A stretch of 50,094 nucleotides of DNA from a virus. Lineage: Duplodnaviria; Heunggongvirae; Uroviricota; Caudoviricetes. The position numbers and the translations under genes were made by a program. The stretch's first letter is position 1, and the number at the start of each line of letters is the position of its first letter. Where the stretch lies: positions 1 to 50,094 of the IMG/VR virus record IMGVR_UViG_2529292998_000004, one strand, 5' to 3'. The notes under the pieces were generated by a model that was given only the letters and a program-made list of their open reading frames with translations, did not search any database and was not told the origin of the DNA. Positions 10,778-43,079 of this stretch are shown piece by piece.

Positions 10778-11476
10778 TTACTGCGAAAGTTTATTAATGG
10801 AAAGGAAACCGCCAAAATTGCCGACATTCCTGCGCAGTTCACACCCGCGCATGCACTTGCTGCATCTGTCCTTACGGATATCCGTGGTGGGTTTATCGAA
10901 CTCATCCGCCACAGCCCCGCCCGTGTAACCACACTCATCAGAGCGGTAGGTCCACATACAGGTGTTCGCCAGCATGATACGACCGGGAAACAGCGCCCCG
11001 TCCGTCTCGGTCGGTGTGGCCAGCACAAACGAGGCCGTCATGGCTGTCAGCTCCGACATCTGCTCCACCACCCAGCGGTCGCTCAGCTCCTGCTCCGGGT
11101 CCGCTTCCGGATTGCCCGCAACGAAATTCACCGCATCCAGAAAACGCGCATACACCCGACGGCGGACCACCGTGGCCCCCACCAGACTCTGCAGGTCTTC
11201 CGCCATCCCGGTGACCAGACCGAACAGATTGGACACCGTCAGCGACGGTCTGGCACTGCTGCCCCGGCCGTTCATCTCAAAGCCGCTGCCGTCAATCGGG
11301 TATGCCTCATACTTACGCCCCTGCCAGGTGACCGGCACCCCTTTTTCATTCAGCTCATTACAGAAAAAATACCGCTCACCACCCTGTACCGTCAGGTCGA
11401 TTTCCCAGAGTACCACCCGCGGTGACTGCTCTGACTTAACCGACTCGTTCAGACTTTCTTCTCGAATATCCTGCAT
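10778..11476 (-). CDS. L: Minor tail protein L
   Basis: 232 aa; MQDIREESLNE... and C-terminal ..NVGNFGGFLSINKLSQ as lambda L. Confidence 0.9.
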   Translation of the reverse strand: MQDIREESLNESVKSEQSPRVVLWEIDLTVQGGERYFFCNELNEKGVPVTWQGRKYEAYPIDGSGFEMNGRGSSARPSLTVSNLFGLVTGMAEDLQSLVGATVVRRRVYARFLDAVNFVAGNPEADPEQELSDRWVVEQMSELTAMTASFVLATPTETDGALFPGRIMLANTCMWTYRSDECGYTGGAVADEFDKPTTDIRKDRCSKCMRGCELRRNVGNFGGFLSINKLSQ

Positions 11477-11805
11477 CAGTTCACCACCTGCTTAAACTCC
11501 GCGCTGAACTCAACGCGCAACATCCCGACCCGCGCAGACCACCCGGCACAGGTCACCTTTATCTGCCGGTATGCATAGGGTGGCTTCCACAAAAATGCCT
11601 TCCAGCCACCGTGCTCTGCCAGGAACGCTTCCAGATGCCGGGCCTCCTCCCGGGTCACGGAAAGCGTCACCCTGTATGTTTTCAGGTCAGCATTCAGCCC
11701 TGCCGCCATACGCTGTGAGTACCCGTCACCAAAACGCACTTCACGCACCGATGGCTGCGAGTTCACCTCCATATCCGGCTTCACTTTCCAGCGAAAGGTT
11801 TTCAT
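11476..11805 (-). CDS. M: Minor tail protein M
   Basis: 109 aa, lambda M-like, between H and L. Confidence 0.9.
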   Translation of the reverse strand: MKTFRWKVKPDMEVNSQPSVREVRFGDGYSQRMAAGLNADLKTYRVTLSVTREEARHLEAFLAEHGGWKAFLWKPPYAYRQIKVTCAGWSARVGMLRVEFSAEFKQVVN

Positions 11806-14375
11806 CCACCGCTCCCTGATAACATACCGCCATCACGCAACTGCAGCCGGAGTTCATCCTGTGCCCCCTTGCGGGCCATCTCATACACCGCTTTCATCAG
11901 CTGCGGCCCTGCCCGCCCGTTGGGGCCGTCGTTCTGAATCACCACGTGATTGTTCTGATTAAAATTAATGCCTTCCGCCCGCCGCATCTGCGCCGGACTT
12001 CCGGCACCGCCGACATAACCACCTTCCGCATAGCCCCGCATCAGGCGGTACAGATTGCCGACACCAATCCGGCTGGTCGCCTCCTTCGTGAAGACAAACT
12101 CCCCGCGATGAACAATCCCCGCAGGTTCATATTTACCCCCCGTCCCCGTAAATCCCCCGGTCGCGAAATGGAAGTTCGCCGCCGCAGCCTGAATGGCTGT
12201 ACCGCCTGACGCGGATGCGCCGCCACCAACAGCCCCGCCAATGGCGCTGCCGATACTCCCGACTATCCCCACCATCGCCTGCTTCAGAAAAATCTCTGTC
12301 AGCATGGACAGCACAGAACGGGTGAAACCACGCCAGTTCTGTTCGCTGCCGGTCAGCATCGCTGCCATATTCTGTGCAATACCGTCAAAGGTCTGCGTGG
12401 CCGCGTTTTTAACCTGCGAAAAACTGTCCGTCGCACTTTCCGCCCACTCGCCCCAGCCGGACTTCATCCCGGCCATCCAGCTTCCACGAAGCTGCTCCTC
12501 CGCAGACCAGGTGTTCTTCAGTGCAGATGTGGCCTTCGCCAGCGCAGCCGGATTATCACCGTACACCTCACGAAGGCGCTGCTCTTCCGACTCCCGCTGC
12601 GCCTGACGGTCGGTGAGTCCGCGGGCTTTTGCGCTGATTGCCGCCTGCTTCGCGCTCTGCTGCTGTTCAAACCGCGCCGCCTGCTGTGCCAGCTCATTCA
12701 GCCGTTTCTGGTGTTCAATCTTGTCGCCCAGCTCAGCCAGCTGGCGTTTGTACTCCAGCGTCTCTTTCTCATGGGCCAGCAGGGATTTTTCCTGCTCAGA
12801 TAACTGCCGTTTCGTGGCGGCCTCTTTCAGGACCACATACTGATTTTCCGCTTCCCATAAATCCCGGCGCTGCTGGCTGATTTTCTCATTCACACCGCTG
12901 TGTTTTTCCAGCGTCCTGAGCTCGGTTTCAAGCGCCAGCAGGGCTGCATGCGCCTGGTCTTCCTGGCGCTCACCGGCAGACACCTTCACACCGGACGGCT
13001 TTTTCTGCGTCGACTCATAATCCTTTTTTGCCGACGCCATCAGCGTGTTGTAATCCGCCTGCAGGATTTTCCCGTCTTTCAGGGCCTTATTCAGCTCTTC
13101 CTGCCGGGCGGTATATTTCTCCAGTGGCGTCAGCAGGCGCTCATACGCCTTCTGCGCCTCTCCGGTATACTTCAGCTGTGACGACTCACGCTCAGCCCTG
13201 TCCCTTGCCGCCAGTTCACCGGCTTTTTCCATATCCGACTGCAGCGTTGCCGCTGCCAGACCCAGACGGGCATTTTCCCGGTCATCCCATGCGCCCTGAA
13301 GGTTGGCACGAAAAGAGGCGGTTTTTCCCCGGCGCTGGCTCCGGCTCTGGTACCACTGCCATTTTTTATCCGCCTCATCAAATGCCTTCTGCGCACTGGC
13401 GAGCATATCCGCTGAGGATTCCGGACGACCGATATCCAGAATGGCATCCCACATCGATTTGAATGCCTTCCCTGTTTTATCCGCCCAGGTCTCCAGTGTT
13501 CCCATGTTTTCTTTCAGGCGACGGGTCTGCTCATCAAAGCCTTTCGTGGCGATATCGTTCGCCGCCTGCAATGCACCGGCCTCGTCTCCGGAACGCTGCA
13601 GCTGTGCAACATACGCAATCTGCTCTGCCGTCACGTTACGGAACTGGCGCGCCATCGCCATCAGTCCCGACGTCGGGTCAGTGGTCAGCTTCCCGAAGGC
13701 TTCAGCGACTTTATCCACCTCCACACCGGATGCAGACGCAAAACGCGCGACACTCTGGTTGATGGCATCAAACTGTTCACCACCACGCACACCGGCATTC
13801 ACCAGGGCTGCCAGTGACTCTCTCGCCTGGTTAAACGTCAGCCCTGCTGCCTGCCCGGCTCTTGAGAGAGTCAGCATACGATCGGCAGTCAGTCCGGACT
13901 GATTACCGGAAAGAACCAGGGTTTTATTAAACGCTGAAAGCGTGGAATCTCCCTGGTACCAGGCGTACACCAGCGCACCTGTCGCCACCGCCAGCGAGGT
14001 GACCCCGACCATCGGCAGGGTGATCGCACCGGCGAGCCCCCTGAACATGGGGATCATCCCGCCGAAGGAGTCCTTCACCTGACCGCCCTGTTGCAGCAGG
14101 ATCAGCCAGGGATTCTGACCACCGGCAAGCTGCGTGGCGATATCCGTAAACTGTGCGGGCAGGGTTCGCATGGCCGCTTTATACTGCCCGACGGAAATCC
14201 CGGCTTTTTGTGCAGCCAGCGCCTGGCGGCTCAGGCCCTGTTCAACAGCACTGGCGGTTTTTCTGGCGTCGGTATCCAGACCTGAAAAATGACGCCTTAC
14301 CCGGCTCATCTGCTCATCGAAACGGACAGCATCCAGACTCAGGTCAATAACAAGATCACCAACCGGCTGGGACAT
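11802..14375 (-). CDS. H: Tail tape measure protein H
   Basis: 857 aa; N-terminal and C-terminal regions match lambda H; long coiled-coil middle. Confidence 0.95.
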   Translation of the reverse strand: MSQPVGDLVIDLSLDAVRFDEQMSRVRRHFSGLDTDARKTASAVEQGLSRQALAAQKAGISVGQYKAAMRTLPAQFTDIATQLAGGQNPWLILLQQGGQVKDSFGGMIPMFRGLAGAITLPMVGVTSLAVATGALVYAWYQGDSTLSAFNKTLVLSGNQSGLTADRMLTLSRAGQAAGLTFNQARESLAALVNAGVRGGEQFDAINQSVARFASASGVEVDKVAEAFGKLTTDPTSGLMAMARQFRNVTAEQIAYVAQLQRSGDEAGALQAANDIATKGFDEQTRRLKENMGTLETWADKTGKAFKSMWDAILDIGRPESSADMLASAQKAFDEADKKWQWYQSRSQRRGKTASFRANLQGAWDDRENARLGLAAATLQSDMEKAGELAARDRAERESSQLKYTGEAQKAYERLLTPLEKYTARQEELNKALKDGKILQADYNTLMASAKKDYESTQKKPSGVKVSAGERQEDQAHAALLALETELRTLEKHSGVNEKISQQRRDLWEAENQYVVLKEAATKRQLSEQEKSLLAHEKETLEYKRQLAELGDKIEHQKRLNELAQQAARFEQQQSAKQAAISAKARGLTDRQAQRESEEQRLREVYGDNPAALAKATSALKNTWSAEEQLRGSWMAGMKSGWGEWAESATDSFSQVKNAATQTFDGIAQNMAAMLTGSEQNWRGFTRSVLSMLTEIFLKQAMVGIVGSIGSAIGGAVGGGASASGGTAIQAAAANFHFATGGFTGTGGKYEPAGIVHRGEFVFTKEATSRIGVGNLYRLMRGYAEGGYVGGAGSPAQMRRAEGINFNQNNHVVIQNDGPNGRAGPQLMKAVYEMARKGAQDELRLQLRDGGMLSGSGG

Positions 14376-38393: not shown

Positions 38394-38758
38394 GCTCCTG
38401 TATCAGTCAGATAATTTCACGATGCTTTCCTGCTGATTGCCATCATTGACAGTCAGACTCTTACACAATCCCACCGCGTTGACTGCATGTTCTCGCCGCC
38501 TCAGTGCGATTTTGACGGCCTTATCTTCCACTCCATCAAATCAAAAGCCCTCACGTCGTTTTCACGCTCAGCGTGAGAAATACAGCCATTCTGTTGTGTC
38601 GCTGCGACATCGTTCAGGGGATGCTATTTACCCCCTGAAACGCGGGCTGTTCCCCCGTCACCTGCGCGCAGAAAAAGCGCGTTTTTTTGTGCACGCACGG
38701 ATCCTTGACGGATCCAGCCGCCATGCGGGCCGGAAGGGTAAAAAGTCGTTCAAAAAAA

Positions 38759-38788
38759 TTGTGCAAATTTGTGCACTTTTGTGCAAAC
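38759..38788. repeat. Three tandem 10-bp repeats TTGTGCA(A/C)NN
   Basis: TTGTGCAAAT TTGTGCACTT TTGTGCAAAC, helical phasing; lies in the interval where the P2-type cos is expected. Confidence 0.6.
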
Positions 38789-38808
38789 AAAAAGCGCCCC
38801 TGAGGCGC
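38787..38808 (-). terminator. Rho-independent terminator ending the three-gene variable-locus operon
   Basis: Hairpin GCGCCTCAGGGGCGC followed by TTTTTGTTT on the minus strand, 38 bp after the stop of 38846..39109. Confidence 0.5.
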
Positions 38809-38845
38809 TTTAGTGTTTTATAGGTTGTGTATATTTGCTGGGTCC

Positions 38846-39110: not shown

Positions 39111-39602
39111 TCACTCTCCTTTGATGCGAATACCAGTGGTACTCATTATCCTGATTTCCCAGAGCACACGAGGAACACCACCGTTTCCGACTGGATCGCG
39201 TTTACTCCGCAGGGCGACGCTTGATTCCGCCCAGCTTTTTCTTGGAGGAAGCGCTTTCACACGAACAAAACCAGCTGCGCGAAGAGATGCTCCTGATTCA
39301 TCTGCCCGGGTGTACGTAATACAACGTTGATAACCCATAGCTTTTGCTGCCCGCCAGACAGCACCATAAAGCGCGCTGTTAGCGTTGCGTTCTCCTGTGG
39401 TACATGTGCGATTTACTTCAAGCGTTAATCCATCATCCAAATGTCGTGCAACAGGTCGACCGGCTGTCGCCACACCTATCAATTCTCCGGCATCATTTCT
39501 CAGACCAATGCTGAATTTATGCCCCACCGGGGGTTTATTGTGTCGGTGATGTCTGGATATAAACGCCTTCGCAACACGAAGAGTAACCGGTGAAATTTGC
39601 AT
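39111..39602 (-). CDS. Hypothetical protein (163 aa), possibly GNAT-like fold; second gene of variable-locus operon
   Basis: Start MQISPVTL.. 3 nt after upstream stop with same AAGGAGAG coupling sequence; C-terminal ..ESGASLRAAGFVRV resembles GNAT motif B (inference only). Confidence 0.55.
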   Translation of the reverse strand: MQISPVTLRVAKAFISRHHRHNKPPVGHKFSIGLRNDAGELIGVATAGRPVARHLDDGLTLEVNRTCTTGERNANSALYGAVWRAAKAMGYQRCITYTRADESGASLRAAGFVRVKALPPRKSWAESSVALRSKRDPVGNGGVPRVLWEIRIMSTTGIRIKGE

Positions 39603-39604
39603 TC

Positions 39605-40180
39605 TCACTCTCCTTTGATGCCAATGTTTACAGACTGGCAAGCCTCTTTGAGCACCCAGTCAACAGCGTCTTTCCATGCTCCGGTTTCGACTGGCGGATT
39701 CTCACGCTTTACCTGTTCATAGAAACGCACCGCTCTAACCAGTCCATCTGACGGTTTTGCCTGTAGTGCAGCCTGAGCTATGCGGTATGCCTGGAGCATA
39801 CGGGCGTCGTTGGCTTTTTTGCGGTTGATGTTGGCTATGTCCGGCTGTGCGTTTGTGTCGAAATACTCGCTCAGTGGCAGGGTGACAACCACATCCACCT
39901 CCTGTGGCGTGATGCCTGATTTGACCAGCGCGTGATGAATGGCAATGACATTCACATCGCTGTACTGGTATTGCGTGTCAGTCGTCTGGACAAAGCGATC
40001 GCTGACCGGATCAAAACCATAGCGCACGCCATCAAGCATGTAGTTCGCGGGCTGCGTGCCACCGAACGGCGCAGACCATTCCGACTTGAAGCTGTTCGGG
40101 CTGATGGCGTTGCGGCGTTCGCCGTTCTCAGTCCATGCCAGCTTGGTGTTGGTGGAGCCGTCATCGATACAAATTTTCAT
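39605..40180 (-). CDS. ParM/StbA-like actin-fold ATPase N-terminal domain protein (191 aa, truncated relative to ParM)
   Basis: MKICIDDGSTNTKLAW...ISPNSFK.EW...FG.....Y.L.G..Y.FDP.S...V.TT....QYSDVNV.A.HHAL..SG....EVD.V.TLPL.EY.D.N.QP...NI.RKKAN closely tracks the N-terminal ~140 aa of plasmid R1 ParM as remembered; remainder unrelated. Confidence 0.6.
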   Translation of the reverse strand: MKICIDDGSTNTKLAWTENGERRNAISPNSFKSEWSAPFGGTQPANYMLDGVRYGFDPVSDRFVQTTDTQYQYSDVNVIAIHHALVKSGITPQEVDVVVTLPLSEYFDTNAQPDIANINRKKANDARMLQAYRIAQAALQAKPSDGLVRAVRFYEQVKRENPPVETGAWKDAVDWVLKEACQSVNIGIKGE

Positions 40181-40211
40181 GTCGCTTTTCCTTATGTTGA
40201 TTAATTAATCG

Positions 40212-40320
40212 TTTACGGGATTCTGAAATCCCGTTTTTGCCTGTTTTATGCGCGCTTCATATATCGCGGCGCGTTTTTTGCTCATTTACGGGATTTGTGA
40301 ATCCCGTTTCTGTCTGTTTT
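40212..40320. repeat. Two ~36-bp direct repeats, each containing a hairpin (ACGGGATT..AATCCCGT), flanking the stop codon of gene A
   Basis: TTTACGGGATTCTGAAATCCCGTTTTTGCCTGTTTT at 40212..40247 and TTTACGGGATTTGTGAATCCCGTTTCTGTCTGTTTT at 40285..40320. Confidence 0.6.
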
Positions 40321-43079
40321 TTGTTTCCACTGGTCAGGCCACCCCGCAGCAGGTCTGCTTTGCGGCGGGCGCGTTCAGTGGTTTCACTGATTCTCTGTGC
40401 GTGCTCTGCGTCGCGGATGGCGCGCAGCATGTCAGAAAGCACGGTAACGGGTGTTTTCATGGTGTTCTGGTCTTGCTGAAGTGTGGATGCCAGGCGTGCG
40501 GCGGCTTCGGGGTCTGATGCCCTCAGCTGTTCCAGATAGCTGGCGACCGGGTTATGGCGGATCTCCGTACTGCTTACGCCGTGGTTACGGCTCAGGCGCT
40601 GCCAGAGCTGCGTGATCCGGCTGTCCGGTCGGGTATCCGGTTTGCGTACAATTTCAAATCCCTGCGGTGCAATGATGCTGCCGTCAACGTACAGACTGCC
40701 GCCCCGTAACAGGTGCTGCATCTGCTGTTCACCGATATGCAGGCCGAGAGATTCGGCAGATTCCCGCCATTCTTTAGCGAGTAATTCGTGGTTATCAGGC
40801 AAAGGCCGCTGCTGTTTGCGGCTCTGTGTCCAGCTCTGCATTTCATCACTGCTGTTTTTTGCCTGTTTGTCACGAAGCGAACGCATCAGCGCCCGGCGTT
40901 CGTGCCGTTTCAGTGAGCGCATCCATTCGTTCACGTCAACGCCGTCAGGAAGCTGCGGCCACGGTGCTGGCCGTTCTTCCGGCTGTTCTGTCCCGTTGTT
41001 GTCCGTTTCCTGTACACGGGGACAGTTATTGCCACGAGTCCAAGGGGCGGCAGGGCCGCCCTGAAGGTCAAAACCATTTTCGTGGGCGTTGTCTTCTGGT
41101 TCTGGTTTACGTCTTACCAACTTCCAGTTATCCGGATGCGTGCACACACGGGAGGATTCCCCGATGAGTGGTGACCAGATCCCGTAAATCTGTACGCTCT
41201 GTTCGCCGTAATCGTTCAGCTCATCTGCGAGGTCGTAGGCGGTGCGAATCAGGTAGTCCTTGCGTGGAACAAGCGCGCCACCCTGTTTTTCAATGTAGGT
41301 GGCAAAACACCCGGCATCGGCGGCAGCGAGTACCGCATCCATTGCATCATCTTTCAGCCGTTGCGGGCCTTCCGGATTGCGTGCCATCTGGCTGGCAAGG
41401 CGGCGCAGTTCACGCCACACCTGACGGGAGGGGATGCCAAAGAACTGGAACTGACGGACCCGGTGAAGGCGCGCCCAGCCGATGGCGCGCTCCACGCTCT
41501 CGGCCATTGATTTTCCGGTTTCGTGGTCAACGCGTGGCTTGCCCGTTTTCGGGTCGATGCCATCCACGGCGCGGCTGTCCAGGTTCTTTCCGATGTAGGT
41601 GGCGATGTAGCTGGTTGGTGTGCCTTTTGAGCCGTCGACATACTCCGCCTTAAAACGCGGAGTTATGTCATCGCCCAGCTCGTGGCGGTCCTCCTGAATG
41701 GCAATATCGCAGACGTGGGACACGATGGTTTCAATCTCGTCCGGATGTGCAAAGACCATCATATGCCAGTGCACAGTGCCGTCATGGTGAGGCTCCACCG
41801 TGCGGATGCCATACCAGCGCAGGCCGTCGCGGTTCAGTTTTTTGCGGACCGCCGCAAAAAACGTGTTAACCAGGTAATCGCTAGAGTCGCGCATGGTGGC
41901 CCCGTTCCATTTGGGGTTCGGATGACCGTTCTCCGTTGTTGCGTGGTATTTTGACGGGCAGGTAACGGTCAGAAACACCGCTCTGTCGCTACGGGCTTCG
42001 GCCAGAAGTTCCAGTCCCTTCATGGTGGCCATCATTTCTGCCTTACGGTGAACCGGGTTACTTACTCCCGCGTAATACACTGTCTCGAGATCAATCGTGA
42101 ACCCGTCTTCATTTTCCAGCATGAAACTTTTCAGGAAATCGCGTGTTTTCTCGCGCTGTGCGCGAAACTCGCTTAACGCGTCCTGGCTCAGATAGGGCGA
42201 TGTTTTTCTGGAAACCAGACAGGCGGCGCGGAGTTGTTCTTCCCGCCACTCGCAACGTAACAGCCACAGTTTGCGTTTCCACCATTCCGCACAGGTCAGG
42301 CGAAGGATTGCGCCCGGCAGCAGTTCTGTGTCCGGTTCGTTCCTCCGGTCTTTGTCTGTTGTCAGTGCGTCATAATGCGGAGGCATGGCGTGCAAGTGTA
42401 ACGCCATGCGGGCTAGCATCTGATACGCCTTCAGCGTTACATCCATGGTCAGCTCGCCATCAGTCGCGCCAAAACCATCGCAGAGTTTTTCGAAGGTGCT
42501 GCTGAACATCGCCGCCGTCATGGTGGCCAGCGTCTGTATCTGGTGTTTGTTGAGTTGCGGCAGGTAAAGCAAATCGTCCAGGCGTTCGCGTCCGGCAAGG
42601 GACCGATAACCCGGTGTCAGCCAACGGCTGTCGGTGCGGTCCAGACGTACGAATATTTTGCGCAGGGTTCCGCGCGCGTAGCGTTCAGCCTGCCAGCTCT
42701 TTTTGCCTTTCTGGCGATCGGCTTCCTGTTTTTTGCGCAGGAAGGAGAGGTGGCGAATAAGCGGATCGCGCAGATAGGACGGCAGCAGGCGCAGCGAGGC
42801 CATGGCTTCATCCACCGCGCCGCGTGCCTGTTTTCTGGCGTCTCCTGCCAGTGTGATGGTTTTGTCCTGTTTTTCCTGTGCGTCCAGGTTTTTATTAATC
42901 AGGTTGCCCAGCGGCGTTGCGGAGAACGCCGCATCAGCCATTTCCTGGCGGCGCTCGTTCTCTGCCCGGTAGGCATCCAGCCAGGAGGAAAGCGCGGATT
43001 CAGGTGCGGGGATCCCCGTTCCTTCACGCCCCACTGCGTGGCGCGGTTGTTGCCAGTCCCTGATGTACTCTGCCGTCAT
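40257..43079 (-). CDS. P2 gpA-like replication initiation endonuclease (HUH rolling-circle Rep), 940 aa
   Basis: HUH motif (..GTVHWHMMVFAH..) and paired active-site tyrosines (..SYIATYIGKN..). Confidence 0.8.
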   Translation of the reverse strand: MTAEYIRDWQQPRHAVGREGTGIPAPESALSSWLDAYRAENERRQEMADAAFSATPLGNLINKNLDAQEKQDKTITLAGDARKQARGAVDEAMASLRLLPSYLRDPLIRHLSFLRKKQEADRQKGKKSWQAERYARGTLRKIFVRLDRTDSRWLTPGYRSLAGRERLDDLLYLPQLNKHQIQTLATMTAAMFSSTFEKLCDGFGATDGELTMDVTLKAYQMLARMALHLHAMPPHYDALTTDKDRRNEPDTELLPGAILRLTCAEWWKRKLWLLRCEWREEQLRAACLVSRKTSPYLSQDALSEFRAQREKTRDFLKSFMLENEDGFTIDLETVYYAGVSNPVHRKAEMMATMKGLELLAEARSDRAVFLTVTCPSKYHATTENGHPNPKWNGATMRDSSDYLVNTFFAAVRKKLNRDGLRWYGIRTVEPHHDGTVHWHMMVFAHPDEIETIVSHVCDIAIQEDRHELGDDITPRFKAEYVDGSKGTPTSYIATYIGKNLDSRAVDGIDPKTGKPRVDHETGKSMAESVERAIGWARLHRVRQFQFFGIPSRQVWRELRRLASQMARNPEGPQRLKDDAMDAVLAAADAGCFATYIEKQGGALVPRKDYLIRTAYDLADELNDYGEQSVQIYGIWSPLIGESSRVCTHPDNWKLVRRKPEPEDNAHENGFDLQGGPAAPWTRGNNCPRVQETDNNGTEQPEERPAPWPQLPDGVDVNEWMRSLKRHERRALMRSLRDKQAKNSSDEMQSWTQSRKQQRPLPDNHELLAKEWRESAESLGLHIGEQQMQHLLRGGSLYVDGSIIAPQGFEIVRKPDTRPDSRITQLWQRLSRNHGVSSTEIRHNPVASYLEQLRASDPEAAARLASTLQQDQNTMKTPVTVLSDMLRAIRDAEHAQRISETTERARRKADLLRGGLTSGNKKQTETGFTNPVNEQKTRRDI

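What the first reader, a model, noticed from the sequence alone, without database searches (positions are those of the whole stretch)
40212..40320. Hairpin-containing 36-bp direct repeats bracketing the stop codon of replication gene A at the edge of the variable locus
One repeat copy encodes the last residues of A (..ETGFTNPV..) and the second lies immediately after the stop, just upstream of the ParM-like gene. A duplicated conserved 3' end of A is what one would expect at a recombination boundary where cargo is exchanged. The hairpins could alternatively act as a regulatory or terminator-like element separating A from the cargo operon.
Basis: seen in the sequence. Interest (0 to 1): 0.45.

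Follow-up and report, generated by a model that had tools for sequence, protein, structure and literature searches.

The report
Orphaned partition centromere beside phage replication gene
The two hairpin-forming repeats are real, but they are not a duplicated end of replication gene A: they are most likely the DNA site (a parC-type centromere) of a plasmid-style ParM/ParR partition cassette that many P2-like prophages carry as cargo. In this copy a deletion has destroyed the cassette and left the site orphaned.

Summary
Two 42-nt direct repeats (40282-40323 and 40209-40250, 34/42 identical, 73 bp apart) each hold a perfect 8+8 palindrome, ACGGGATT-N4-AATCCCGT. One lies in the last codons of gpA and the other just after its stop, 29 nt before a ParM-like ORF.

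Relatives with the same gpA allele but other cargo lack both repeats and have different A tails. Homology ends about 35-50 nt upstream of the first repeat. Relatives with unrelated gpA alleles but the same parM carry both repeats. So both repeats travel with parM-parR, and no copy lies at the far side of the cargo.

Intact relatives (P88, PhiR44_2) encode an R1-type ParM and a Plasmid_stab_B ParR. More distant ParMR modules in P2-like prophages, and an IncL/M plasmid, keep two repeat blocks about 72-73 bp apart, near -125 and -55 from the parM start. The motif changes with the ParR lineage.

Best explanation: a split, parC-like ParR-binding centromere/operator (inferred, about 0.7). Here a 1.4-kb deletion removed most of parM and all of parR, so the site is a relic. 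This is a new member of a known kind, of modest interest.

The parts
40282..40323 (-). Distal repeat unit (42 nt), inside the last codons of gpA. Its core palindrome ACGGGATT-caca-AATCCCGT lies at 40288-40307.
   Evidence: Found at about -127 to -130 from the parM ATG in all relatives that have parM. Absent from relatives with the same gpA but other cargo.
40209..40250 (-). Proximal repeat unit (42 nt), intergenic. It starts 7 nt after the gpA stop and ends 29 nt before the parM' ATG. Its core palindrome ACGGGATT-tcag-AATCCCGT lies at 40215-40234.
   Evidence: Found at about -54 to -57 from the parM ATG in relatives.
40251..40281 (-). Spacer between the repeats. It holds a GC-rich imperfect palindrome (40251-40274) around an AT-rich centre (GATATAT). 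This is the position where plasmid parC sites carry the par promoter, but no sigma-70 consensus is found here.
   Evidence: It is the most variable part of the element among relatives and is not conserved in distant modules.
40257..43079 (-). Replication gene A (gpA, 940 aa). The allele-conserved part ends near 40357-40373. The last ~30 codons (40257-40356) belong to the par cassette.
   Evidence: Phage_GPA, E = 1.9e-128. Boundary.
40324..40373 (-). Zone of mosaic junctions: the left edge of the par cargo module. Same-A/other-cargo relatives diverge at 40357-40373. Other-A/same-par relatives join at ~40322-40330.
39605..40180 (-). Truncated parM' fusion ORF (191 aa). Residues 1 to ~124 are the ParM N-terminal domain (39808-40180). 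The rest is the 3' part of a gp20-like cargo gene. The deletion junction is at 39808-39812.
   Evidence: StbA_N, E = 4.5e-64, covering only 130 of 158 profile positions; 1.4 kb is missing relative to PhiR44_2, which removes the parM 3' part, parR and a ClpX-zinc-finger gene.
40189..40193 (-). Shine-Dalgarno-like AAGGA in front of the parM' ATG.
   Evidence: Read from the sequence. Conserved in all relatives.

Best explanation
The two repeats are the cis-acting site of a type II (ParM/ParR, actin-like) DNA partition cassette. This cassette is common cargo in the gpA-gpQ hotspot of P2-like (P88-type, Xuanwuvirus) prophages. The site is a split, parC-like centromere/operator.

Proposed mechanism (inferred, not shown). 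Dimers of the ribbon-helix-helix protein ParR bind the GGGATT / AATCCC half-sites of each 20-bp palindrome. The half-site centres are 10 bp apart, so they lie on one face of the helix. The two palindromes, 73 bp or about 7 helical turns apart, are brought into one ParR-DNA complex. That complex captures growing ParM filaments through the conserved ParR C-terminal tail (NIRALFPE), which moves copies of the extrachromosomal phage genome apart.

The phage version lacks a recognisable promoter between the blocks, and gpA reads into the distal block. The cassette is therefore probably transcribed by read-through from the early (replication) operon, so it would act when the phage genome is extrachromosomal rather than in the integrated lysogen.

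In this window a 1.4-kb deletion has removed the 3' 60% of parM and all of parR. The site is an orphan that could work only if ParM and ParR came in trans from another P88-like prophage.
For: Shown:
1. The repeats go with parM-parR and not with gpA. They are absent when the same gpA has other cargo. They are present when unrelated gpA alleles carry the same par genes, and homology starts at the edge of the distal repeat. In Hafnia L134 the cargo consists only of the repeats plus parM and parR, followed directly by the portal gene.
2. Intact relatives encode a full ParM (StbA_N + ParM_N; R1 ParM PDB 1mwk, E = 9e-93) and a 103-aa Plasmid_stab_B/ParR protein (E = 1.6e-24). ParR has an invariant N-terminal RRISFYLKP... 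DNA-binding part and a conserved C-terminal tail.
3. The 42-nt pair is the only repeat family in the intact P88 par module, and it lies just upstream of parM, where parC sites lie (review PMC5016525).
4. The architecture is conserved while the motif changes with the ParR lineage. All positions below are relative to the parM ATG.
   - P88 type: GGGATT-N4-AATCCC at about -127 and -54.
   - Hafnia L134: about -124 and -51.
   - Hafnia sp. L225 (ParM 62% identical): GGGATTgaggAAACCC at -128 and GGGTTCattaAATCCC at -55.
   - Plesiomonas L226 (63%): GCGGGACAACAnnAACCC at -133 and -61. These are alike as direct repeats but form only poor hairpins.
   - Serratia L227 and Enterobacter L228: an inverted pair, GGGAAC.A.ATAGAAAAAT, which contains the iteron of the IncL/M plasmid. 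Their ParR proteins are also the closest to the IncL/M ParR (48-53% identity).
   - IncL/M pKPN-068: TATTTTTC iterons at -132, -122 and -49.
5. Conservation is at the DNA level. In Hafnia, A crosses the distal palindrome in a different frame and stops in its loop. In L144 a 2-nt deletion shifts the A frame, so A ends earlier (931 aa).

Inferred: ParR binding itself, the geometry of the complex, and the timing of expression.
Against: - No binding data exist.
- The site has only two palindromes (four half-sites) rather than the arrays of 10-11-bp iterons typical of R1 or pSK41 parC.
- No sigma-70 promoter is detectable between the blocks, so the classic autoregulated-promoter feature of parC is not seen.
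- In an unbiased sample only 15 of 78 loci have both palindromes perfect. P88 itself has two mismatches in the distal one, so constraint on the outer stem positions is loose.
- The ParR DNA-binding segment is invariant within the P88 group, so covariation can be read only between distant lineages, which are few.
- A-tract phasing that would suggest DNA wrapping is only marginal (27/500 and 9/500 shuffles).
- The ParR monomer model was of low confidence (pLDDT 56), so the ribbon-helix-helix fold rests on Pfam family membership.
Confidence: 0.7

Rival explanations
1. The hairpins are intrinsic terminators on the window + strand, which is antisense to gpA and parM. Together with the central GC hairpin followed by T6, they would insulate the replication gene from transcription entering from the cargo or late-gene side.
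For: Both palindromes are called terminator-like on the + strand: 8-bp stems followed by TTTTGCCTGT and TTCTGTCTGT. The central GC-rich hairpin is followed by TTTTTT on the + strand. The T-rich flank is part of the conserved 42-nt unit and is retained in Hafnia. Some relatives have cargo genes on that strand.
Against: In the Plesiomonas and Hafnia sp. modules the repeats persist at the same positions but pair poorly, with 3-5 bp stems. What is conserved there is similarity between the two copies, not hairpin strength. Proximal-copy variants common in E. coli (17 of 88 loci) weaken the + strand hairpin to -3.3 kcal/mol. No compensatory changes are seen. This reading does not explain why the motif tracks the ParR lineage, nor the fixed ~73-bp spacing shared with a plasmid parC. 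It may still be a secondary property of the E. coli-type site.
Confidence: 0.1
2. The repeat is a duplication of the conserved 3' end of gene A, created by or serving as the homology for recombination that swaps cargo.
For: One copy is inside A, and both copies could encode ...TGF(T/Q)NPVN(E/D) in some frame. A real mosaic boundary lies within ~50 nt.
Against: The sequence is not a conserved A end. It is missing from same-allele A genes with other cargo, and it is present next to unrelated A alleles. There is no copy at the far side of the cargo. The two-block layout predates this gpA association, since it is shared with distant par modules and a plasmid. In Hafnia the distal copy is read in another frame.
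Confidence: 0.03
3. The hairpins act in the sense mRNA (gpA-parM transcript), for example as an RNase processing or stability element, or as a regulator of parM translation.
For: The sense strand folds well (z = -5.3). The proximal hairpin lies 34 nt upstream of the parM Shine-Dalgarno sequence. Most proximal-copy variants keep pairing in the sense RNA through G-U pairs.
Against: There are zero compensatory changes. Most distal-copy variants break sense-strand pairing. There is no Rfam match. Hairpin potential is lost in the Plesiomonas module while the direct repeat remains.
Confidence: 0.07
4. The repeats are binding sites for a protein other than ParR: a host factor, gpA itself (an origin-like site), or another cargo protein.
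For: A 20-bp palindrome is a generic dimer-binding site. In P2 and 186 the replication origin lies inside gene A (own knowledge, not tested here).
Against: Same-gpA phages lack the site, so it is not needed for A-dependent replication. The only genes constantly linked to the repeats are parM and parR. The motif changes with the ParR lineage.
Confidence: 0.1

Closest known systems
parC centromere of the plasmid R1 ParMRC (type II) partition system
   Same: It lies directly upstream of parM. It is split into two repeat blocks. The cognate adaptor is of the same Pfam family as R1 ParR/StbB, and the motor is a close homologue of R1 ParM (E = 9e-93). The split-centromere layout is described in review PMC5016525.
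   Different: R1 has two arrays of tandem iterons with the autoregulated par promoter between them. Here each block is a single 20-bp palindrome inside a 42-nt unit, no sigma-70 promoter is detectable in the spacer, and the upstream replication gene reads into the distal block.
parC-like region of IncL/M plasmids (pKPN-068, NZ_CP007733)
   Same: ParM is 52-53% identical. Repeat blocks lie at -132/-122 and -49 from the parM ATG, giving the same ~73-bp block spacing and the same distance to parM. Its iteron TATTTTTCTR recurs, in inverted orientation, in the par modules of Serratia and Enterobacter P2-like prophages.
   Different: The iteron sequence is unrelated to GGGATT-N4-AATCCC. Its ParR has no BLAST-detectable similarity to P88 ParR. 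It has a good promoter, TTTACA-17-AATAAT, between the blocks.
The 'putative plasmid partitioning system' cargo of the P2-like gpA-gpQ hotspot (Rousset et al. 2022, PMC9122126)
   Same: This is the same locus and the same genes. That paper reports the system in about a quarter of E. coli P2-like phages. Here it was found in 1373 of 5426 genomes.
   Different: The passages of that paper retrieved by a keyword search mention only the protein-coding cassette. No centromere, no repeats and no overlap with the gpA 3' end appear in them, and the paper was not read in full.
AlpC/AlpA/alpS of Corynebacterium prophage CGP3 (PMC4446434, PMC5539076)
   Same: A prophage-encoded actin-like filament protein, a DNA-binding adaptor and specific DNA sites, proposed to act on extrachromosomal replicating phage DNA (abstracts).
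   Different: A different actin-like family and adaptor. Homology was not tested here and the resemblance is functional only.

Membership tests
parC centromere of a type II (ParMRC) partition locus | Lies immediately upstream of the parM gene | tested here: met
   The proximal palindrome ends 34 nt before the parM' ATG in the window. In intact relatives the palindromes lie at about -54 and -127.
parC centromere of a type II (ParMRC) partition locus | Repeated ParR-binding units, continuous or split into two blocks | tested here: inconclusive
   There are two 42-nt units 73 bp apart, which gives a split layout. However, each block is one palindrome (two half-sites), not an array of 10-11-bp iterons. 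The same two-block spacing is seen in the IncL/M plasmid and in distant phage modules.
parC centromere of a type II (ParMRC) partition locus | A cognate ParR (ribbon-helix-helix adaptor) and a ParM are encoded in the same cassette | tested here: not met
   In this window parM is cut at about residue 124 and parR is deleted. The feature is met in intact relatives: ParM 319 aa and ParR 103 aa, PF10784, E = 1.6e-24. The window therefore holds a remnant of a member.
parC centromere of a type II (ParMRC) partition locus | The repeat sequence is specific to its ParR, so the motif changes with the ParR lineage | tested here: met
   There are five ParR lineages with four distinct motif types, and the Serratia/Enterobacter lineage shares the IncL/M plasmid iteron. 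All sit at equivalent positions. ParRs that share an iteron type are the most similar to each other. The number of lineages is small.
parC centromere of a type II (ParMRC) partition locus | Contains the autoregulated par promoter | tested here: not met
   No sigma-70-like promoter was found at 9 of 12 matches, and only 7 of 12 at best in a relaxed scan. The IncL/M plasmid scores 10 of 12 in the same place. A consensus scan cannot exclude a weak or activator-dependent promoter.
parC centromere of a type II (ParMRC) partition locus | ParR binds the repeats, and the site confers ParMR-dependent stabilisation in cis | not testable with these tools
   This needs a gel-shift or footprint assay and a plasmid-stability assay.
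Rho-independent (intrinsic) terminator | A GC-rich stem-loop followed by a U-run on the transcribed strand of the upstream gene | tested here: not met
   On the gpA/parM sense strand the hairpins are followed by AAAUGAGC and AAACGAUU. Only the antisense (+) strand fits the pattern.
Boundary repeat / duplicated gene end at a cargo-exchange junction | The repeat is part of the conserved flanking gene and recurs at junctions with other cargo or at the far side of the cargo | tested here: not met
   It is absent from three same-gpA loci with other cargo. It has no copy elsewhere in the window or in the cargo of intact relatives.

The most novel reading that the evidence does not exclude
P2-like phages may use a pared-down ParMRC system whose centromere is two palindromes with no promoter of its own, fused to the 3' end of the replication initiator gene. 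ParM and ParR would then be made only together with gpA, when the genome is extrachromosomal. The system would position or segregate replicating phage circles, or allow transient plasmid-like carriage, rather than act in the integrated lysogen. One P88-like genome is deposited as a 34-kb circular 'plasmid'. Orphan sites like the one in this window could then act in trans, as ParR sinks or incompatibility determinants against incoming P88-like phages.
Probability: 0.2. Interest if true: 0.55.

Novelty: new member of a known kind. Interest (0 to 1): 0.3.

Why it matters
About a quarter of E. coli genomes carry this ParMR cassette in a P2-like prophage, yet its DNA target does not appear in the passages retrieved from the hotspot survey that noted the cassette. 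Assigning the two palindromes as the probable centromere has several uses.

- It gives a concrete, testable site for asking what an actin-like segregation machine does for an integrating phage.
- It places the true left edge of the gpA-gpQ cargo hotspot inside the annotated gpA ORF. The last ~30 codons of 'A' are cargo-specific, which matters for anyone delimiting hotspot cargo by gene boundaries.
- It warns that repeats straddling a stop codon need not be recombination scars.

For this particular window the element is a dead remnant and has little consequence.

Tried and rejected
- **Viral-contig pattern scan.** It gave many loci, but all were near-identical and had been selected for the palindrome itself. 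I did not use them to argue conservation and replaced them with a ParM-based sample.
- **L021.** It looked like a parM with a single repeat in a new context. It is an IS66-family insertion with a deletion, so it is uninformative.
- **Genome-contig scan with ParM.** It returned only three near-identical loci.
- **tblastn of ParR against plasmids.** It found only P2-like prophage copies, so no close plasmid ParR was available for covariation.
- **PDB sequence search with ParR.** No meaningful hit.
- **AlphaFold monomer of ParR.** Confidence was too low (pLDDT 56) to justify a fold search.
- **Programmed frameshift joining A to the second copy.** Rejected: the offset is +1 and there is no slippery heptamer in the zero frame (from the sequence).
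- **The 26-codon ORF bridging the repeats.** It has no Shine-Dalgarno sequence and is absent from distant modules, so it is probably not a gene.
- **Origin-of-replication idea.** Rejected because same-gpA phages lack the site.
- **RNA-structure covariation and Rfam.** No support.
- **A-tract periodicity.** Only marginal.
- **Literature searches on P88 and phiSM.** No description of the par locus beyond its annotation.

Full report
**1. What is in the sequence**

All genes around the finding are on the minus strand. gpA runs from 43079 to 40257 (940 aa; Pfam Phage_GPA, E = 1.9e-128). Downstream are:
- a 191-aa ORF (40180-39605) whose first ~130 residues match the ParM N-terminal domain (StbA_N, E = 4.5e-64);
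- two small ORFs;
- the convergent portal (Q) and terminase (P) genes.

This is the gpA-gpQ variable region of a P2-like prophage.

The repeat is real. Two 42-nt units, at 40282-40323 and 40209-40250, are 81% identical and 73 bp apart. Each holds a perfect palindrome, ACGGGATT-N4-AATCCCGT. These are the only two such sites in 50 kb, even with three mismatches allowed (0.24 expected). The distal unit encodes gpA residues ...KKQTETGFTNPVNE.... The proximal unit starts 7 nt after the A stop and ends 29 nt before the ParM-like ATG. Between them lies a GC-rich imperfect palindrome. The region folds far better than shuffles on both strands.

**2. Whose repeats are they?**

Megablast identifies the phage as P88-like (Xuanwuvirus, Peduoviridae). 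Intact relatives (P88, PhiR44_2) have gpA, then a 319-aa ParM, then a 103-aa protein, then further cargo, then the portal gene. The ParM is a close homologue of plasmid R1 ParM (PDB 1mwk, E = 9e-93). The 103-aa protein belongs to Pfam Plasmid_stab_B, the ParR/StbB family (E = 1.6e-24).

Three kinds of natural recombinant show that both repeats belong to this par cassette and not to gpA.

(a) Three E. coli prophages have the same gpA allele but different cargo: Dam methylase plus an AAA ATPase; three reverse-strand genes; an AAA ATPase plus an S8 peptidase. Homology to the window stops at 40357-40373 (gpA residue ~908...ETTERARRKA). Each A protein then has a different short tail, and no palindrome is present.

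(b) L047 has a gpA only 31% identical (773 aa) plus an extra ORF, yet carries the same parM-parR. Homology to the window begins at 40322, exactly the outer edge of the distal repeat. L067 likewise has a different A C-terminus and joins about 20 nt upstream of the distal palindrome.

(c) In a Hafnia prophage gpA is 61% identical but ParM is 95% identical. The cores of both palindromes are kept while the flanks diverge. A crosses the distal palindrome in a different reading frame and stops in its loop. In that phage the whole cargo is the repeats plus parM and parR.

So the last ~30 codons of this 'gpA' are cargo DNA, and the conservation of the repeat is not a protein-coding constraint. No third copy exists at the far side of the cargo, either in the window or in intact relatives. 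L021, which seemed to carry one repeat in a new context, is an IS66-family insertion with a deletion.

**3. What the repeats most likely are**

In type II partition systems the centromere parC lies just upstream of parM. It consists of repeats bound by ribbon-helix-helix ParR dimers. The repeats are either continuous or split into two blocks around the promoter (review PMC5016525). The 42-nt pair is the only repeat family in the intact P88 par module, and it sits exactly in that position.

The stronger argument is comparative. I retrieved more distant ParM/ParR pairs (ParM 54-63% identical), and all of them lie in the gpA-gpQ hotspot of P2-like prophages. Their upstream regions keep two repeat blocks at nearly the same distances from the parM ATG, but the sequence differs:

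| Module | ParM identity to P88 | Repeat motif | Positions from parM ATG |
|---|---|---|---|
| E. coli P88 type | reference | GGGATT-N4-AATCCC | about -127 and -54 |
| Hafnia L134 | 95% | GGGATT-N4-AATCCC | about -124 and -51 |
| Hafnia sp. L225 | 62% | GGGATTgaggAAACCC / GGGTTCattaAATCCC | -128 and -55 |
| Plesiomonas L226 | 63% | GCGGGACAACAnnAACCC (twice) | -133 and -61 |
| Serratia L227 / Enterobacter L228 | 58% / 54% | inverted pair GGGAAC.A.ATAGAAAAAT | about -118 and -70 |
| IncL/M plasmid pKPN-068 | 52-53% | TATTTTTC iterons | -132, -122 and -49 |

The Plesiomonas copies are alike as direct repeats but are poor hairpins. The Serratia/Enterobacter motif contains the IncL/M plasmid iteron, and their ParR proteins are also the closest to the IncL/M ParR (48-53% identity over the N-terminal domain). 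P88 ParR is only ~40% identical to them. Within the P88 group the ParR N-terminal ~60 residues (RRISFYLKP...) are invariant, the linker varies, and the C-terminal NIRALFPE tail is conserved. That matches the unchanged motif in this group.

In short, the two copies evolve in concert, their spacing and position are conserved, and the motif tracks the ParR lineage. This is what a ParR-binding centromere predicts. A recombination scar or a terminator does not predict it.

The half-sites within one palindrome are 10 bp apart centre to centre, and the two palindromes are 73 bp apart, about seven helical turns. All four half-sites could therefore face one ParR assembly. This geometry is inference.

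**4. How it differs from textbook parC**

- Each block is a single palindrome rather than an iteron array.
- No sigma-70-like promoter is found between the blocks. There is none at 9 of 12 matches, and the best relaxed match is 7 of 12, while the IncL/M plasmid has TTTACA-17-AATAAT in the same place.
- gpA reads into the site, and no sense-strand terminator follows A.

I infer that the phage cassette is transcribed by read-through from the early operon. It would then be expressed when the genome is extrachromosomal and replicating. That would also avoid ParM filaments pushing on an integrated prophage. This is speculation. It is compatible with the suggestion of Rousset et al. (PMC9122126) that the cassette might allow plasmid-like maintenance, and with one P88-like genome deposited as a 34-kb circular 'plasmid'.

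**5. Rival explanations**

*Antisense terminators.* On the + strand both palindromes, and the central hairpin, are followed by T-runs and are called terminator-like. This cannot be excluded as a side property. However, hairpin strength is not what is conserved:
- only 15 of 78 ParM-selected loci have both palindromes perfect;
- the changes are one-sided;
- common proximal variants drop the + strand hairpin to -3.3 kcal/mol;
- there are no compensatory changes;
- the Plesiomonas repeats barely pair.

*Sense-RNA element.* The distal variants argue against it, and there is no Rfam match.

*Origin of replication for gpA.* This is unlikely because same-gpA phages lack the site.

**6. State of the element in this window**

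Compared with PhiR44_2, the window lacks 1.4 kb. ParM codon ~124 is fused, through a 5-nt microhomology at 39808-39812, to the 3' part of a gp20-like gene. The deletion removes the rest of parM, all of parR and a ClpX-zinc-finger gene. This junction occurs in only 2 of 5426 complete E. coli genomes. The repeats here are therefore an intact but orphaned site.

**7. Verdict**

The 'duplicated A end' interpretation is not supported, although a cargo boundary does lie ~35-50 nt away, inside the annotated A ORF. The best explanation is a parC-like centromere/operator of a prophage ParMR cassette (confidence about 0.7). Binding and function remain untested. The cassette itself is known, but I found no description of its cis site in the papers I could search. 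The finding is a new member of a known kind and of modest interest.

Noticed in passing
window 39605-40180 (junction 39808-39812): parM is fused in frame to the 3' part of a gp20-like cargo gene by a 1.4-kb deletion that also removes parR and a ClpX-zinc-finger gene. The same junction is present in only 2 of 5426 complete E. coli genomes (strains 266917_2 and PO06021).
   Followed up: yes
window 40204-40284 (- strand): A 26-codon ORF (MSKKRAAIYEARIKQAKTGFQNPVND) starts in the tail of the distal repeat, overlaps the end of gpA in another frame and ends after the proximal repeat. It stays open with the same start and stop in the diverged Hafnia relative. It has no Shine-Dalgarno sequence and is absent from more distant par modules.
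   Followed up: partly
L124 (NZ_CP148288.1, whole record): A complete P88-like phage genome with intact parM-parR is deposited as a 34,461-bp circular, non-mobilizable E. coli 'plasmid'. It could be an induced or replicative form, or genuine plasmid-like carriage.
   Followed up: no
window 40324-40373: The left edge of the gpA-gpQ cargo hotspot lies inside the annotated gpA ORF. gpA proteins with different cargo have different cargo-specific C-terminal tails after ...ETTERARRKA.
   Followed up: yes
window 39111-39641 (- strand): A 176-aa cargo ORF has a weak Pfam Mom-family match (E = 1e-4; 22.3 bits, below the 27.1-bit cutoff). It is followed by an 87-aa ORF. Both are shared with PhiR44_2.
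   Followed up: no
window 38660-38815: A cluster of terminator-like hairpins on both strands lies between the cargo and the portal gene. A short 10-bp tandem repeat (TGCACAATAG-like) sits at the equivalent place in P88. This is probably the convergent-transcription and cos-proximal region.
   Followed up: no
L021 (IMGVR_UViG_2874920711_000009), about 11450-14160 in the gpA-sense orientation (reverse complement of the locus): A degenerate IS66-family element has replaced the gpA C-terminus and the distal repeat. It leaves one palindrome in front of parM.
   Followed up: yes
window 1-25000: The left half of the window encodes large minus-strand ORFs (for example 1158, 991 and 857 aa). They look like a tail or structural module that is not part of the P2-like gpA-gpQ locus studied here. 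I did not examine them.
   Followed up: no
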